Shown here one piece after another: positions 2-5,029 of a DNA stretch of 37,207 bases. This stretch comes from a virus (Duplodnaviria; Caudoviricetes). The first letter of the stretch is position 1; every line of letters starts with the position of its first letter. The stretch is from positions 1-37,207 of the IMG/VR virus record IMGVR_UViG_3300037484_000770; one strand, 5' to 3'. The notes beneath the pieces were generated by a model, which ran no database searches, had not been told where the DNA came from, and saw only the letters and a list, made by a program, of their open reading frames with translations. Made by a program: the position numbers and the translations under genes.

Positions 2-74
2 TGGGGGATCGTCTAACGGCAGGACGCCAGACTCTGGATCTGGCTAATCCTAGGGTTCTGCGGAAATCCCCCAG
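2..74 (+). pseudogene. tRNA-Gln(CTG)-like sequence with degenerate T-arm; probable attachment-site junction
   Basis: Acceptor stem TGGGGGA(2-8)/TCCCCCA(67-73), D-arm 11-25, anticodon stem CCAGA/TCTGG with loop CTCTGGA (CTG at 34-36). The T-arm region 49-66 cannot form a canonical TTCGAAT stem-loop and there is no CCA. Confidence 0.75.
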
Positions 75-94: not shown

Positions 95-622
95 CTACTG
101 TGCCACGGTTGCTACGGCCACTCGCTGGGAAACCCGGTCCAAATAGTCCGCGGCATTCCTGAGCAACGCAGCCGAATCACTGAACAACCCGATCCCTTTG
201 TTGCACGGGCCGCAGAGCAGCCCCCGCACGAGGTTCCTCTCGTGGCAGTGGTCCACCTCAAGCGTCCGGCGCTTGCCGAAGAGGGCGATCGATCCGCAGA
301 TGGCGCACTTCCCGTCCTGTTCCGCGAGAAGCTCGTCGTAGGCCTCGGCGGTGATCCTGTAGCGATGCGCCAGGTTCTTGGCGCGGCGCCCCAATGACAC
401 GGGTACCGGTGCGAGCGGCGCGCGCCCGAGTCGGCTGACGAAATGCACCGGGTCCTTCTCGAAGCGCTCGTACTCCGCGTTTGCGGCCTCCAGCGTCACG
501 CAGCCCGTGGAGAGGCGCACCTGCTCCCCGTGAATCGTGCGGCGGATGTAGAACACGCCACCGACGCCGCGCTGGTAACCGACCGACTTGCGACCGTATT
601 TCCATGGAACCGTTGTGGGCAT
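95..622 (-). CDS. Endonuclease VII-domain protein with integrase-arm-like N-terminus
   Basis: C-terminus has YxITxxxYxxLLxxQxGxCAICG...VDHCH...VRGLLCxxCNxGIG (EndoVII). N-terminus VFYIRRTIHGEQVRLSTG...A resembles tyrosine-integrase arm-binding beta sheets. Confidence 0.8.
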   Translation of the reverse strand: MPTTVPWKYGRKSVGYQRGVGGVFYIRRTIHGEQVRLSTGCVTLEAANAEYERFEKDPVHFVSRLGRAPLAPVPVSLGRRAKNLAHRYRITAEAYDELLAEQDGKCAICGSIALFGKRRTLEVDHCHERNLVRGLLCGPCNKGIGLFSDSAALLRNAADYLDRVSQRVAVATVAQ

Positions 623-900
623 GGCGGCACATTATCAGCACACCCTGACAGCCACCTCACCCCTCCCCTCCCGCCGATCGCCTCTCTACGGGCCGCCCAG
701 GAGGCGGCGCAGTTTTGCGTTGCCGGTCCTGGCGCCGCAGAACATGCGCGAGCAAACCTGTCCGCATATCGCTAGGTTCCGTGCTCAGCACCCCGAATGG
801 GTCACGCCGGGCCCGCAGAACGTGCGCACGGCACGAAGGGGCTAGCCGGGCGACCCTAGCAATCTCACTCCCTTAGCCGTGCCGCCTCACGGGCGGCTGG

Positions 901-916
901 TGGCACGGGGGTAGCA
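901..916 (+). promoter_or_regulatory. Putative sigma54 (-24/-12) promoter of the early gene cluster
   Basis: TGGCACG-GGGG-TAGCA versus consensus TGGCACG-N4-TTGCW, with exact GG-N10-GC spacing. ATG at 929 is near the predicted +1. Confidence 0.65.
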
Positions 917-928
917 GTGAGTAGGGAC

Positions 929-1168
929 ATGACCACGACGAGCCTCACGAGCCTGATAGAGCGGCGGATGACGGGGCGGCAGGTGACGGACACGCAGCTC
1001 CGCCGCGTCGCCGCGTACGAGTGGGATCATTTCGCCGCGCCGCTCACGCCGGCAGGCGAGGTGACTTTCCACGAGTTGTCTCGCCGCTTCCGCGGTCTCC
1101 CTCCCGCGCCGGCGCGCCGGTTGGCGCGCGCGAACATGGACGATTTCAATCGCGGGTGGGGAGCATAG
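929..1168 (+). CDS. Hypothetical early protein
   Basis: First ORF after the sigma54-like promoter; MTTT start like its neighbours. Confidence 0.65.
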   Translation: MTTTSLTSLIERRMTGRQVTDTQLRRVAAYEWDHFAAPLTPAGEVTFHELSRRFRGLPPAPARRLARANMDDFNRGWGA

Positions 1169-1218
1169 CCTCACCCAGAGACCGCCGGCTCGCTCCGGCG
1201 GAAAAAAAGGAGAGCACC

Positions 1219-1407
1219 ATGACCGCAGAGACCCGCAGCACGTATCGCGTCGTCGCCACCCGCCCCACCGCAGGCCCCGGATCCTCGATGGATTCACGCG
1301 AGGTTGGGCCGTTCGAGTCGCGCCGCCTCGCCGAGGAGGCCGCGAGCCGCATGGTGGACGACCCCCGCCGCTGGGGTCGGATCGAGGTTGAGGAGGTGGC
1401 GCCGTGA
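1219..1407 (+). CDS. Hypothetical early protein (62 aa)
   Basis: AAGGAGAG RBS before ATG 1219; GTGA overlap with the next gene. Confidence 0.75.
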   Translation: MTAETRSTYRVVATRPTAGPGSSMDSREVGPFESRRLAEEAASRMVDDPRRWGRIEVEEVAP

Positions 1408-1667
1408 CGACTCGACTGACGTACTACGAGGTACCGACCGAGACGGGGCGATATGTCCCGGATCGTATCCTTCCGGACACGCGGTCAGGACGCCGTGAGG
1501 CTGCGCGCCTCTTGGGGCGCCGCGCACTGCGCTGGCATCCATATAGCGACTCCACCGGAGAGGACGGGTGGCGCGCCGTCGCCGTCGTCCGCCCAAATGG
1601 CACGGACTACGAATCCTCGGACGATGGGTCCATGCCCTCGGTCTACCGCGAGGTGCGCGACTCATAA
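1404..1667 (+). CDS. Hypothetical early protein
   Basis: GAGGAGG RBS, translationally coupled GTG start, protein-like composition. Confidence 0.75.
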   Translation: MTTRLTYYEVPTETGRYVPDRILPDTRSGRREAARLLGRRALRWHPYSDSTGEDGWRAVAVVRPNGTDYESSDDGSMPSVYREVRDS

Positions 1668-1672
1668 GCACC

Positions 1673-1733
1673 GGCGAAACCGCCCTCCGGGGCGGTCGCG
1701 CGGACCGGGCTCCCGCGCCTGACGAGCCAGCCC
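1673..1733 (+). ncRNA. Type II hammerhead ribozyme (copy 1) with loop I pseudoknot
   Basis: GGC-GAAA-[CCGCCC tccg GGGCGG]-TC-[GCGCGG accgggctc CCGCGC]-CTGACGA-GCC: full catalytic core and GUC cleavage triplet (cut after 1697). Loop GGGCT pairs with 3' AGCCC. Confidence 0.9.
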
Positions 1734-1748
1734 ACAAGGAGAGACCAC

Positions 1749-1925
1749 ATGACGACCACGACGAAGACCCCCGAAGCGGACGAGACCTACGAGCAGAGGC
1801 AGGATCGCGAGGACGCAGCCCGACACGAGGCCGAGGAGGCGCTCGCGCAGGATCCCTCCGTGATCGCGGCGGCCATCGCGGATCACAACGCCGACCTGGC
1901 CGAGCAGGAGGGGATCGACGAGTAG
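1749..1925 (+). CDS. Small acidic protein (58 aa, not in the ORF track)
   Basis: AAGGAG RBS; MTTTTKTPEADETYEQRQDREDAARHEAEEALAQDPSVIAAAIADHNADLAEQEGIDE; 17 D/E versus 4 K/R. Confidence 0.8.
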   Translation: MTTTTKTPEADETYEQRQDREDAARHEAEEALAQDPSVIAAAIADHNADLAEQEGIDE

Positions 1926-1981
1926 TCCCACGCTGTACCCACCCCGCGCGCCCGGGACCACGGCGCAAAAGGAGAAAAATC

Positions 1982-2407
1982 ATGACCACCACCGAGCAGA
2001 AGAGCCTGACGATCACCCTCACTGACCGCCCGCCGGTGCGGATCACCAAGACCGACTGGCCCATCATCGCCACCGCCCGCGGTGACTCGTACGGCTCCGG
2101 GGACCTCGCGTGCCACGATCAGGCGGTCGCGCGTGGCGAGTGCGATCAGTACCGACTCACGGTTCGGCAGCACGCCGCCGGCCGCGCGATCGTGTACGGC
2201 GTGTTGGACGCCGCGACCGCGTGGACCGGCAGTGAGGACTACCGGGGCGGCGAGTTGCTCCCCTCCGTCGCGGGCGGACGGCGTGAGGGCGACATGGCAC
2301 ATCGCAGCGACATCGCGGCAGCGATCCGGCGGGTCGGTGAGTCCTGCCACCTCCCCGACTCGATCACCCGCGAGTGCATCGCCGATCTGCCAGCAGTCGA
2401 GATCTGA
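1982..2407 (+). CDS. Hypothetical early protein (141 aa)
   Basis: AAGGAG RBS before ATG 1982; 3' part of track ORF 1568..2407. Confidence 0.8.
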   Translation: MTTTEQKSLTITLTDRPPVRITKTDWPIIATARGDSYGSGDLACHDQAVARGECDQYRLTVRQHAAGRAIVYGVLDAATAWTGSEDYRGGELLPSVAGGRREGDMAHRSDIAAAIRRVGESCHLPDSITRECIADLPAVEI

Positions 2408-2468
2408 GGCGAAACCGCGCTTCGGCGCGGTCTGCCGGACCGGGCTCCCGGCACCGACGAGCCAGCCC
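2408..2468 (+). ncRNA. Type II hammerhead ribozyme (copy 2, U4C core variant)
   Basis: GGC-GAAA-[CCGCGC ttcg GCGCGG]-TC-[TGCCGG accgggctc CCGGCA]-CCGACGA-GCC-AGCCC; compensatory stem changes relative to copy 1. Confidence 0.8.
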
Positions 2469-2482
2469 ACAAAGGAGAGACC

Positions 2483-2680
2483 ATGCCGGCATACCGCGCA
2501 GCCTACTGGATCAGCGACGACGAGCAGGCGGAGATCGTTCTCACCGCGGCGGAGGAGGCGCACCTCTCGGACGCCGATCTGCTGGAGCACGCCCACGTCG
2601 AGGCGGCGAGGGGCGACGTCGATCTCTCCACGGGCGAGATCAGGATCGGCACGTGGCGCGAGAGCGCGACGGACGAGTGA
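2483..2680 (+). CDS. Small acidic protein (65 aa)
   Basis: AAGGAG RBS; 16 D/E versus 4 R. Confidence 0.8.
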   Translation: MPAYRAAYWISDDEQAEIVLTAAEEAHLSDADLLEHAHVEAARGDVDLSTGEIRIGTWRESATDE

Positions 2681-2691
2681 GGAGATAGACC

Positions 2692-3063
2692 ATGACCGCC
2701 CGCGCCACACACTACGACGATCCGAGAGCTACCGCGCTAGTAGATCGCGCCTGTCGGTTGGGGCGACACGCGGTGACCCCCGCGGATTTCCAGGCGCTCG
2801 CTGAAGCGGAGCGCGACGTGGCACAGCACGTGGTCGCGTCGCCCTATGAGCCTCGGCCGGGCGATCCACACTGGCTCACGGGGCCAGTGCTGTACTGGAG
2901 AGCCATGCCCACCGCCCACTGCCCCCAGTGCCGCCACCGCGACCCACGCACCGGCCGCTGCCGGGAGCTCCCCGAGACATACGCGAGCCAGGCCCCGATC
3001 CGCTGCACCGCCTATGACGGGCCGCCACTGCCGGACCAGACCGAGGACGAGGAGGAGACCTGA
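2692..3063 (+). CDS. Hypothetical protein with C-terminal Cys cluster (CxxCxH...C...C)
   Basis: GAGGAG RBS; probable Zn-binding motif. Confidence 0.7.
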   Translation: MTARATHYDDPRATALVDRACRLGRHAVTPADFQALAEAERDVAQHVVASPYEPRPGDPHWLTGPVLYWRAMPTAHCPQCRHRDPRTGRCRELPETYASQAPIRCTAYDGPPLPDQTEDEEET

Positions 3064-3629
3064 TGCCCCGCCCCCTCCACCACGTCACCCTCTCGACCGG
3101 CGACGACCGCGAGTCGCCGCGCGCCAGGGTGGGCAGCGACGTGATCCAGATCCTCGCCCCGCTCCTCGCTGCTATCGCACGCGGCGAGGAGGTAGAGGTC
3201 CCGCGCGTCGAGCCGGCCTGCACGATGACCGGCGCGGCCGGCGGCGACTGCCTGATCCTCACCGTGTGGGGGCCGCCCGACGGTGAGCAACCCATCCCGC
3301 TCGCGACCGTGGGGATCGCGCGTGGGCCCGCGGAATCCGATCGGCTGTGGATCCTGCTCCACGAGACGGCCGTCGGAATCGCCGCCGTCACGCCCGCCGA
3401 CCAGGCCCCGCCGCTGCCATGGTGCGGAGCGCGGCTCGAGGTCGGGATCACCCTCTACCTTGAGGCGGCACACTGGCTCGGTGACTTCGAGCGCTGTCTC
3501 GCGTGGACTTGGATCGAGCGCGGCACCACCTCGCCCCCCGCGATCCGTCCGCCGCCTCCCTCTGCCCGTCCCACCCGATCCCGAGCACCGGCGGCGCCAC
3601 ACCGAGGGCCGCGCAGGAGACGACGATGA
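3063..3629 (+). CDS. Hypothetical protein
   Basis: TGATG coupling and GGAGGAG RBS; low-complexity Pro/Arg tail. Confidence 0.7.
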   Translation: MPRPLHHVTLSTGDDRESPRARVGSDVIQILAPLLAAIARGEEVEVPRVEPACTMTGAAGGDCLILTVWGPPDGEQPIPLATVGIARGPAESDRLWILLHETAVGIAAVTPADQAPPLPWCGARLEVGITLYLEAAHWLGDFERCLAWTWIERGTTSPPAIRPPPPSARPTRSRAPAAPHRGPRRRRR

Positions 3630-3877
3630 CCACCCGTACCCGCCCCGCCCGCGAACGCGGCGCCGACCTCAAGCGCGGCCTCTACGCGATCCGCCTGCTC
3701 CGCGAAACCCCGCGGATCCGCGGCGAGCTGGCGCGCCGCCTCGGCTGCTCGCTCGACACGGTAGATCGCACCCTCGACGTCCTCCGCCGCGCCGGGCTCC
3801 AGCTCACGCGCACGGAGGACGGCCGCGAGGTCTACTACTCCTTGCCGCCGGAGACGTACGCGAGGGTGATGCCGTGA
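3626..3877 (+). CDS. Winged helix-turn-helix DNA-binding protein
   Basis: AGGAG RBS; ELARRLGCSLDTVDRTLDVL HTH followed by a wing (EDGREVYYSL). Confidence 0.8.
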   Translation: MTTRTRPARERGADLKRGLYAIRLLRETPRIRGELARRLGCSLDTVDRTLDVLRRAGLQLTRTEDGREVYYSLPPETYARVMP

Positions 3878-3913
3878 TGCCCCTCGTCCGGTGACCCCAC
3901 CCGGCCCGGGCCA

Positions 3914-5029
3914 TCACAGGATTCCCACCCAGGCCCCAGCACTTCGGACATACAACCGCTGGTTAGCTACACCGGGAGTGTCTGTCCGGAAATACGCGTC
4001 GCCATCGGTGCCGTTGGCGTCACTCGGCACGCCGGGTCCCTGGAACAACCTGCCTGCCTGCGAAACTCCGCCGTCGGTCGCGAGGCTCAGCGACCCCAAT
4101 CCCGTGATCTGGACGCCCTTTGCGGCCTGGATGCGCAATCCCGATGTGCTGCCTACTATTTGATATAGATCGCCCAGTGTTCCGGACATCTCTATCGTCT
4201 GTACTTCTTCGCCCGATTCCAGCTTGATGTTTCCGTTCACGTCGTTGCTCCGGATGAATAGCCGTACGTCGGCGCCGGGCCATCCGAGCATTAGTGTGCC
4301 GTCTTCTGTTTTGCTGTACAGTTTGATCTCATTGACCCCGTCGGTCCACCGTATCCCCTTTGCCGTAGCAAGATCATACGAACCATGATCGGCTACTTCG
4401 AGATCGTCGGTGACGAACTCAGGCGGCGCGACGGCGATCCATTCATAGCTCCCATCAGCCGCCTGGCGGCAGTAGTGCATTTCACCATCGGTCCCGGCGT
4501 CCCGCACCGAGATGAGGCGTCGGTGCCACGTCGCGTCCGCGGTCGGCCGCGTCGCGGTTGTGAATGCCTGCGCCCGCACCGTCGGCGCCGCCGCCGTTCC
4601 CCCGAAATCATTGGTGAGCTGCACGACACCCGGTACCGTCGCCGTCGCGAGGCGGAACCCGACCGCAGTACCGGCGACCTGATCGATCCGCTCGAGCGCC
4701 CCGATGTCGATCGGGTCCGGAGTCGACGGCACGTACGCCTTGAACACCGTGTCCCGAACGGACCCCCTCGCGTCTTTCGCGCGGATCGTGAACCTGTAGT
4801 AGAGGCCGGTGACGTCGAGCGCGTCCGTGGGCGTGAGCTGGAACGTCGAGGGGATCCCTCCGTCCGCGTCGAGCGTGCAGTACACGCGGTCCGTAACGAT
4901 CTCGGACTCTGCTCCGTCGAGGGTCGCCGCGGCTTGCGATAGCTTCGCTTCGATCGTGGAACCCGCCCCCGGAGCGGAGCCGTCAGGGAGCAGGACCATT
5001 CCGCTGATCGTTGTCAGGGGGATCGCCAC
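3914..5029 (-). CDS. Tail fibre / receptor-binding protein
   Basis: ATATVPGVVQL fibre repeat; C-terminal GxPSxxxGxDGDxYFRTD...LYVRSAGAW motif typical of phage fibre/tail proteins. Confidence 0.7.
   Translation of the reverse strand: MAIPLTTISGMVLLPDGSAPGAGSTIEAKLSQAAATLDGAESEIVTDRVYCTLDADGGIPSTFQLTPTDALDVTGLYYRFTIRAKDARGSVRDTVFKAYVPSTPDPIDIGALERIDQVAGTAVGFRLATATVPGVVQLTNDFGGTAAAPTVRAQAFTTATRPTADATWHRRLISVRDAGTDGEMHYCRQAADGSYEWIAVAPPEFVTDDLEVADHGSYDLATAKGIRWTDGVNEIKLYSKTEDGTLMLGWPGADVRLFIRSNDVNGNIKLESGEEVQTIEMSGTLGDLYQIVGSTSGLRIQAAKGVQITGLGSLSLATDGGVSQAGRLFQGPGVPSDANGTDGDAYFRTDTPGVANQRLYVRSAGAWVGIL

What the first reader, a model, noticed from the sequence alone, without database searches (positions are those of the whole stretch)
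1673..2468. Tandem type II hammerhead ribozymes punctuating the early operon
Seen: two intergenic elements have the permuted hammerhead order stem II-GAAA-stem III-GUC-stem I-C(U/C)GACGA-stem II. Stems covary between copies (III: CCGCCC/GGGCGG versus CCGCGC/GCGCGG; I: GCGCGG/CCGCGC versus TGCCGG/CCGGCA). The loop ACCGGGCTC and the 3' AGCCC, its pseudoknot partner, are invariant. Each starts 0-5 nt after a stop codon and ends 2-3 nt before an AAGGAG RBS. Established: hammerhead cleavage leaves 5'-OH and 2',3'-cyclic phosphate ends. Inference: self-processing of the polycistronic mRNA (cuts after 1697 and 2432) yields stabilised 5'-OH messages and a 735-nt two-gene fragment that could be circularised.
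Basis: partly seen in the sequence, partly recalled or inferred. Interest (0 to 1): 0.85.

Follow-up and report, generated by a model that had tools for sequence, protein, structure and literature searches.

The report
Tandem hammerhead ribozymes between phage genes
Two self-cutting RNA motifs of a known kind (type II hammerheads) sit between small genes of an uncultured bacterial virus and likely cut its message into gene-sized pieces, a layout published for phages in 2011; the second copy is likely weakened, and an uncatalogued small RNA knot lies between them.

Summary
Elements 1673-1733 and 2408-2468 match Rfam Hammerhead_II above its cut-off (43.2 and 47.1 bits, cut-off 37). Stems, pseudoknot, stop-codon and RBS spacings are as described, with predicted cuts after C1697 and C2432.

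The layout is known. Perreault 2011 described tandem pseudoknotted type II hammerheads flanking one or two prophage genes, showed cleavage, and looked for circles without finding any. It is also common: 40 of 65 viral contigs listed carry two or more. This scan has noted it on other DNA too.

Likely function is mRNA processing. Three claims are unsupported here: 'early' operon, 'stabilised' messages and a circle.

Additions:
(1) Copy 2 is likely attenuated. It has a U4C core (4 of 204 relatives) and a 13-of-14 bp rival helix with the next gene's first codons.
(2) The enclosed 141-aa gene family is ribozyme-associated (8 of 93 loci, plus twisters).
(3) An uncatalogued 25-nt H-type pseudoknot at 1943-1967 sits before the internal RBS and covaries in held-out loci.

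No cleavage or RNA data exist. Verdict: new member of a known kind.

The parts
1673..1733 (+). Type II hammerhead, copy 1: full consensus core, 3-bp stem II, 5-bp loop I / 3' tail pseudoknot; predicted cut after C1697, leaving a 51-nt leader before ATG 1749
   Evidence: Rfam RF02276 43.2 bits; sequence
2408..2468 (+). Type II hammerhead, copy 2, with a U4C core variant (CCGACGA); predicted cut after C2432, leaving a 50-nt leader before ATG 2483
   Evidence: Rfam RF02276 47.1 bits; U4C in 4 of 204 relatives; a related contig in run X1 has U4 and a compensated stem I
1404..1667 (+). Upstream small ORF (87 aa, no family); stop codon 5 nt before copy 1
1736..1741 (+). Shine-Dalgarno-like AAGGAG after copy 1
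   Evidence: sequence
1749..1925 (+). Acidic 58-aa ORF, first gene of the 735-nt piece; no family
1943..1967 (+). Compact H-type pseudoknot (helix 1: 1943-1946 with 1953-1956; helix 2: 1948-1952 with 1962-1966) ending 2 nt before the RBS AAGGAG 1969-1974; no Rfam match
   Evidence: Rfam blank at E<=10
1982..2407 (+). 141-aa ORF of a large family of unknown function (P0001), second gene of the 735-nt piece; relatives often have a hammerhead or twister beside them
   Evidence: 455 homologues; confident model without a clear fold match
2472..2477 (+). Shine-Dalgarno-like AAGGAG after copy 2
   Evidence: sequence
2486..2499 (+). Codons 2-6 of the next ORF; complementary at 13 of 14 positions to the cut-site strand 2425-2438 of copy 2 (possible anti-ribozyme helix)
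2483..2680 (+). 65-aa ORF downstream of copy 2; one relative seen (L238, 64% identity)

Best explanation
These are two type II hammerhead motifs, each wedged between a stop codon and the next ribosome-binding site of a small-gene cluster in a lambda-like phage, and they likely cut the shared mRNA after 1697 and, probably more slowly, after 2432. The cuts would give gene-block-sized linear messages. Each downstream piece would start with a 5'-OH, the stem I hairpin and pseudoknot, and a standard leader of about 50 nt, so its decay and translation would be set independently of the genes upstream. Shown: sequence, fold signature, Rfam scores, covariation, gene layout. Established for the family: chemistry of the ends; cleavage of comparable tandem arrays in vitro and in E. 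coli. Inferred: transcription as one message, cleavage of these two copies, weaker activity of copy 2, and any effect on stability.
For: Both copies score above the Rfam RF02276 cut-off. Compensatory changes occur between the copies. A related contig in run X1 spanning 2362-2504 keeps stem I through changes on both strands and has the canonical U4, so the fold is being maintained. The pseudoknot is supported in relatives at a position the search did not fix: 35 of 51 dereplicated sequences pair Watson-Crick against a shuffled mean of 18.6, with 0 of 10,000 shuffles as high. The cassette layout is general: 146 of 204 relatives have an SD-like site and start codon 14-56 nt after stem II, with median ORF length 60 aa (no control run); here the distances are 20 and 19 nt. 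The ribozyme class is interchangeable beside the 141-aa family: type I or II hammerheads lie within 263 nt, same strand, in 8 of 93 loci (80 kb), against 1 in the 284 kb farther away. Twister-P5 lies 8 nt after the gene in L145 and about 1.6 kb upstream in L248. This fits a need for a cut rather than for one RNA shape. Perreault 2011 saw the expected cleavage products from three tandem arrays in vitro and from one in E. coli.
Against: No cleavage or expression data exist for this phage. Without pseudoknot energy the active fold is not the predicted minimum. It lies 1.3 kcal/mol above it for copy 1, equal to the median of 204 relatives. For copy 2 it lies 4.3 above (22% of relatives are as high), rising to 9.7 once 2486-2499 is transcribed. 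U4C considerably lowers activity in vitro, though it supports viroid infectivity (PMC3088659). 4 of 18 consensus hammerheads in that paper were inactive. Most loci of the 141-aa family (85 of 93) have no hammerhead nearby, so the cut is optional for that gene. No promoter was found, so the extent of the transcript is unknown.
Confidence: 0.72

Rival explanations
1. Only copy 1 works. Copy 2 is a decaying or nearly silent ribozyme kept mainly as a structured leader and RBS cassette, so the 735-nt piece is rarely made.
For: U4C is rare (4 of 204) and looks derived, since the related X1 contig has U4. The rival folds are 4.3-9.7 kcal/mol below the active fold without pseudoknot energy.
Against: All three stems and the pseudoknot of copy 2 are intact, and its stem I differs from copy 1 and from the X1 relative only by compensated changes. 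U4C is a known viable natural variant. The 5-bp pseudoknot helix (about -7 kcal/mol as an isolated duplex) is left out of the folding comparison.
Confidence: 0.3
2. Copy 2 is a translation-coupled switch. The first codons of the next gene pair across the cut site and block the ribozyme; a ribosome loading at the 2472 RBS would break that helix and permit the cut.
For: The helix has 13 of 14 complementary bases across the cut site. It is the strongest such duplex of 203 tested (-28.3 kcal/mol; 1 of 6000 cross-paired controls as strong) and is part of the predicted minimum fold. The N-terminus here (MPA) differs from that of relative L238 (MTTT), and the differing codons supply part of the helix.
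Against: It is not a family feature: own-downstream duplexes average -13.1, the same as cross-paired ones. Synonymous recoding of the same amino acids reaches the same strength in 9.6% of trials. The other half of the helix lies in codons (YRA) conserved in L238, which has no hammerhead before that gene. It was noticed after the fact in very GC-rich DNA. Copy 1 lacks it (-16.5).
Confidence: 0.12
3. The pair releases a 735-nt two-gene RNA that is circularised, by back-ligation or by a host RtcB-type ligase, into a stable circular mRNA.
For: The ends would be 5'-OH and 2',3'-cyclic phosphate. Both copies share the GGC/GCC stem II, so the joined ends would rebuild a complete consensus hammerhead.
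Against: Circular or spliced products were sought and not detected for tandem phage hammerheads. Only 3 bp join the ends in a type II fold. The rebuilt junction has a canonical core and would re-cut. It needs the weaker copy 2 to cut efficiently. Relatives of the enclosed gene usually have a ribozyme on one side only or none.
Confidence: 0.08
4. The cuts serve to silence rather than stabilise: the 5'-OH pieces, or the upstream pieces left with unprotected 3' ends, are degraded quickly, which limits the dose of these small proteins.
For: glmS cleavage leaves a 5'-OH that RNase J1 degrades rapidly (PMC3328962). After the cut the upstream piece ends in stem III with only 2 free bases, so its protection is uncertain (sequence).
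Against: The cut leaves a hairpin or pseudoknot at the very 5' end and a strong RBS downstream. In E. coli a ribozyme-made 5'-OH slows end-dependent decay.
Confidence: 0.2

Closest known systems
Type II hammerhead ribozymes with loop I / 3'-tail pseudoknot (Rfam RF02276; Perreault et al. 2011, PMC3088659)
   Same: Permutation (stems I and III closed, stem II open), short stem II, pseudoknot of 4 or more pairs, AGCC tail, GUC site; both copies score above the gathering score.
   Different: Copy 2 has U4C, which that paper cites from a viroid rather than from phages and which its strict core filter would reject. Stem II has 3 pairs rather than the model's 2.
Clustered prophage hammerheads flanking single genes or short gene blocks (Clostridium scindens, Azorhizobium caulinodans, Agrobacterium tumefaciens ardA array; PMC3088659)
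   Same: Tandem copies on the coding strand bracket one or two small genes, and the flanked genes are not constant.
   Different: The genes here are of unknown function (no ardA), and a separate pseudoknot leader sits between the two enclosed genes.
Ribozyme-associated gene neighbourhoods shared by hammerhead and twister ribozymes (reviewed in PMC6765202)
   Same: The enclosed 141-aa family is found beside hammerhead I, hammerhead II and twister-P5 in different loci.
   Different: The family has no Pfam or PHROG profile. I could not check whether it is in the published list of associated genes (PMC4509812 is not held).
Retrozymes and viroid-like circular RNAs (PMC7229834, PMC7761336; search listings and abstract starts only)
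   Same: Two ribozymes in tandem bound a unit with ends that could be ligated.
   Different: This is a protein-coding stretch of a dsDNA phage with type II ribozymes and unrelated flanks, with no evidence of a circle.

Membership tests
Type II hammerhead ribozyme (RF02276) | Covariance-model score above the gathering threshold | tested here: met
   43.2 and 47.1 bits against 37, full model length
Type II hammerhead ribozyme (RF02276) | Stems I and III closed by loops, stem II open; pairs next to the core intact (1.1-2.1, 10.1-11.1, A15.1-U16.1) | tested here: met
   Stems of 6, 3 and 6 pairs in both copies
Type II hammerhead ribozyme (RF02276) | Core C3 U4 G5 A6 N7 G8 A9, G12 A13 A14 A15, U16 H17: copy 1 | tested here: met
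   CTGACGA, GAAA, GTC
Type II hammerhead ribozyme (RF02276) | Same strict core: copy 2 | tested here: not met
   U4C (CCGACGA). Copy 2 is therefore filed as a natural core variant that works like the family, not as a strict-consensus member. The variant occurs in 4 of 204 relatives and is known from a viroid.
Type II hammerhead ribozyme (RF02276) | Pseudoknot between loop I and the tail 3' of stem II | tested here: met
   GGGCU/AGCCC in both copies; the unselected fifth pair covaries in relatives, 35 of 51 against 18.6 shuffled
Type II hammerhead ribozyme (RF02276) | Mg2+-dependent self-cleavage 3' of H17 | not testable with these tools
   Needs a transcription and cleavage assay
Clustered prophage hammerheads processing polycistronic RNA | Two or more copies on the coding strand flanking one gene or a short block in a phage | tested here: met
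   Two genes enclosed; terminase, portal, capsid, tail and endolysin genes in the window
Clustered prophage hammerheads processing polycistronic RNA | One transcript spans both ribozymes | not testable with these tools
   No RNA run listed; no promoter match
Retrozyme / viroid-like circular RNA | Ribozyme-bounded unit accumulates as a covalently closed circle | not testable with these tools
   No RNA data; not detected for comparable phage arrays
Retrozyme / viroid-like circular RNA | Non-coding repeated unit or RNA replicon (definition recalled, with abstract listings) | tested here: not met
   The unit is single-copy and holds two ORFs with RBSs inside a dsDNA phage

The most novel reading that the evidence does not exclude
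The cluster is tuned by three RNA devices in 800 nt: a constitutive hammerhead, an uncatalogued 25-nt pseudoknot leader that fills the same pre-RBS slot as ribozymes around this gene family, and a second hammerhead turned into a translation-gated cutter. In that copy the U4C core and a 13-bp helix with the next gene's first codons would keep it off until a ribosome loads. That would be a natural bacterial hammerhead regulated by translation of its own downstream gene.
Probability: 0.12. Interest if true: 0.7.

Novelty: new member of a known kind. Interest (0 to 1): 0.27.

Why it matters
The motif and layout are known, so this example is ordinary on its own. The open question is what bacterial and phage self-cleaving ribozymes are for, which a 2019 review calls largely elusive (PMC6765202). 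This locus is a compact test case: a consensus copy and a probably weakened copy of one cassette, 735 nt apart, with identical loop and tail, so the effect of cut strength on downstream expression can be compared directly. Two side results could be of more use than the finding itself: an unnamed protein family with at least 455 members that attracts three ribozyme types (a hunting ground for new classes), and a small covarying pseudoknot leader with no Rfam match.

Tried and rejected
Searches that returned nothing useful:
- An exact-loop pattern in viral contigs found 0 loci; a looser pattern was needed.
- A single-sequence search for the 141-aa gene in viral contigs found none, and tblastn against 50,697 named phages found no match.
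- Fold searches of its model (pLDDT 91) were inconclusive: no Foldseek hit at E<=0.001 in PDB or BFVD, best VIA Z 5.6, weak WGR-like rows. The ESM Atlas gave only unnamed viral clusters.
- The 65-aa downstream protein found only itself in the large protein search.
- No RNA holder was listed among sequencing runs; the single DNA run holds short pieces of relatives only.

Ideas tested and not supported:
- An anti-defence role for ribozyme-led genes: of 53 cluster representatives most had no or unknown-function hits, with one GemA, one superinfection-immunity protein and no ArdA.
- Plain folding z-scores do not support either hammerhead (z -0.56 and -0.70). This is expected for a pseudoknotted junction and was not used.
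- The anti-ribozyme helix as a family feature was rejected.
- The pseudoknot leader as a general companion of type II hammerheads: 1 weak hit (E 0.57) in 65 hammerhead loci.
- An independent viral scan for one subtype of that pseudoknot gave chance matches only: 1 of 24 distinct matches had three stem pairs, against 1.1 expected. The exact window motif gave 0. Its breadth beyond this gene neighbourhood is therefore not shown.
- Rfam scans of 59 of the 104 loci of the 141-aa family gave 2 twisters and 1 hammerhead; (20 loci) was blank.

Left open:
- Host not identified.
- Literature: 8 searches. None listed a paper on the pseudoknot leader or on circles from phage hammerhead pairs. The library lacks most subscription papers, Weinberg 2015 is not held, and no supplements were opened; the RAGATH motif descriptions and Perreault's Dataset S1 could bear on novelty.

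Full report
Context. The window is the whole of G000, one 37,207-nt contig. PHROG scans give terminase, portal, protease, capsid, tail, endolysin, RusA, DnaB-like helicase and replication initiator, all on the - strand: a lambda-like tailed phage. A cluster of nine short + strand ORFs (929-3877) converges on the late genes. Left of it lie an endonuclease VII gene (95-622) and a tRNA-like end at 2-74 with a broken T arm (29.2 bits; ARAGORN finds no tRNA), which looks like an attachment-site remnant (inference). No sigma-70-like promoter or terminator was found in 500-4200, so 'early operon' is not established. The host is unknown.

Observation. Rfam RF02276 Hammerhead_II matches 1672-1736 at 43.2 bits and 2407-2471 at 47.1 bits against a cut-off of 37. 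My descriptor for types I, II and III finds only these two in the window. The predicted cuts follow C1697 and C2432, 735 nt apart, leaving leaders of 51 and 50 nt.

Relatives. A degenerate pattern found 145 loci in viral contigs, of which 79 were listed. By hand count these are 65 contigs, 40 with two or more matches; many are related phages. A descriptor over 144 fetched loci gave 204 distinct type II elements: U4 in 200, C4 in 4. Stem pairing in this set is selected by the descriptor and proves nothing, but the pseudoknot partner was not selected. 119 of 120 elements with an AGCC tail have GG(C/U) in the stem I loop region, against 65% after shuffling. The next pair outward is Watson-Crick in 35 of 51 dereplicated sequences, against 18.6 by shuffle. 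146 of 204 have an SD-like site and a start codon 14-56 nt after stem II (uncontrolled), so stop-ribozyme-RBS-start is the standard cassette. In DNA run X1 a 143-nt contig aligns over 2362-2504. It changes both strands of stem I compatibly, has U4, and turns one stem II pair into G-U (five of its 14 differences were not listed). Copy 2's U4C and stem I therefore look derived.

Copy 2 is likely weaker. U4C considerably lowers activity in vitro but permits viroid infectivity (PMC3088659). Without pseudoknot energy the active fold lies 1.3 kcal/mol above the minimum for copy 1 (family median 1.3). For copy 2 it lies 4.3 above, rising to 9.7 when 2486-2499 is included. The cause is a helix between 2425-2438 and codons 2-6 of the next gene, 13 of 14 complementary. 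It is the strongest of 203 such duplexes, but there is no family-wide excess (means -13.1 and -13.1), and synonymous recoding reaches it in 9.6% of trials. I rate it a lead, not a result.

Enclosed genes. The 58-aa ORF has no family. The 141-aa ORF has 455 homologues among 544 candidates, with no Pfam domain on the 120 listed. Its model is confident but has no clear fold match. Among 93 distinct loci encoding relatives, 8 have a type I or II hammerhead within 263 nt on the same strand (80 kb scanned), against 1 in the remaining 284 kb and 2 in 1.2 Mb shuffled. Rfam scans of 59 of 104 such loci added two twister-P5 ribozymes. This is the pattern of ribozyme-associated genes reviewed in PMC6765202 (passages): the class is interchangeable, and the cut is what matters.

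Third element. Between the two enclosed genes, 1943-1967 is shared with leaders in related loci. A descriptor found it before 33 of 951 SD-led starts, against 0.34% in shuffles, with 27 of 28 distinct hits on the gene's strand. In 26 aligned sequences 7 of 9 pairs show changes on both sides (partly selected). A model holding only helix 2 found 35 matches, all on the gene's strand, in 71 loci not used to build it; a few are near copies of training rows. In the top 20 distinct matches the three helix 1 pairs, which were not modelled, pair in 16, 20 and 18 cases against 11.1, 16.4 and 10.0 shuffled. It is therefore a real H-type pseudoknot just before the RBS, with no Rfam match. Against breadth: it gave 1 weak hit in 65 hammerhead loci, and an independent pattern scan was at chance. 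Its function is untested; end protection or setting of ribosome access is my guess.

Mechanism. The likeliest job is co-transcriptional cutting of a multi-gene message into blocks, each with a standard structured leader. Whether the 5'-OH stabilises (E. coli; 10.1101/2020.07.22.216051, passage) or destabilises (glmS and RNase J1; PMC3328962, passage) depends on the host. A circle is chemically possible, and its junction would rebuild a consensus hammerhead. But only 3 bp hold the ends, the junction would re-cut, and such products were sought and not seen for comparable arrays.

Comparison. Perreault et al. 2011 (PMC3088659; parts 1-5 of 8 read, covering results, discussion and methods, no supplements) reported type II hammerheads, the loop I / tail pseudoknot, clusters flanking single genes or short blocks in prophages, cleavage of three tandem arrays, and the mRNA-processing hypothesis. 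Copy 1 meets every testable family feature. Copy 2 fails the strict core at position 4 and is filed as a known natural variant. Other papers: PMC13725137 and PMC5737381 (passages) and PMC4033574 (passages) added nothing decisive; the retrozyme papers were seen as listings only. Earlier notes of this scan report the same layout on other genomes; I read them after my tests and they are not counted as evidence. The numbering of core residues, the RtcB suggestion and the tRNA-Gln label are recalled or read by eye.

Verdict. The feature is real and is a new member of a known kind; interest 0.27. The translation-gated reading has probability about 0.12 and would deserve about 0.7 if true.

Noticed in passing
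window 1943-1967: Uncatalogued compact H-type pseudoknot 2 nt before the RBS of the 141-aa gene. It covaries in both helices in held-out loci and in some loci (L223, L234) follows a hammerhead directly.
   Followed up: yes
window 2425-2438 with 2486-2499: 13-of-14 complementarity between the cut-site strand of hammerhead 2 and codons 2-6 of the next gene; not a family-wide feature.
   Followed up: yes
window 2-74: tRNA-like end (CTG anticodon by eye, Gln) with intact D and anticodon arms and a broken T arm, 29.2 bits; probably an attachment-site remnant.
   Followed up: partly
window 95-622 (-): Endonuclease VII domain (residues 83-162) behind an N-terminal part that by eye resembles an integrase arm domain (recalled, untested), next to the tRNA-like end. 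No integrase was found among the 35 ORFs scanned.
   Followed up: no
window 1182-1205: 7-bp GC hairpin followed by an A-run and RBS before ORF 1219 (fold z -2.06); on the - strand it reads as hairpin next to a T-run, not called a terminator by the scan.
   Followed up: no
window 640-928: About 290-nt non-coding stretch with a 15-nt direct repeat (735-749, 813-827) and several hairpins; candidate promoter or operator region. A related contig in X1 covers 768-918.
   Followed up: no
window 3626-3877: Small helix-turn-helix gene closes the + strand cluster (HTH_20, E 2e-6); possible regulator of the cluster.
   Followed up: no
L145:4440-4497 and L248:1304-1370: Twister-P5 ribozymes near relatives of the 141-aa gene.
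   Followed up: partly
L192, L198, L202, L215, L216 upstream of the 141-aa relatives: Hammerhead-like or degenerate cores seen by eye that the descriptors did not score, so the 8-of-93 count may be low.
   Followed up: no
L238:2700-3020: Relative in which the 65-aa gene sits upstream of the 141-aa gene and is led by the pseudoknot instead of a hammerhead: gene order and leaders are shuffled as cassettes.
   Followed up: partly
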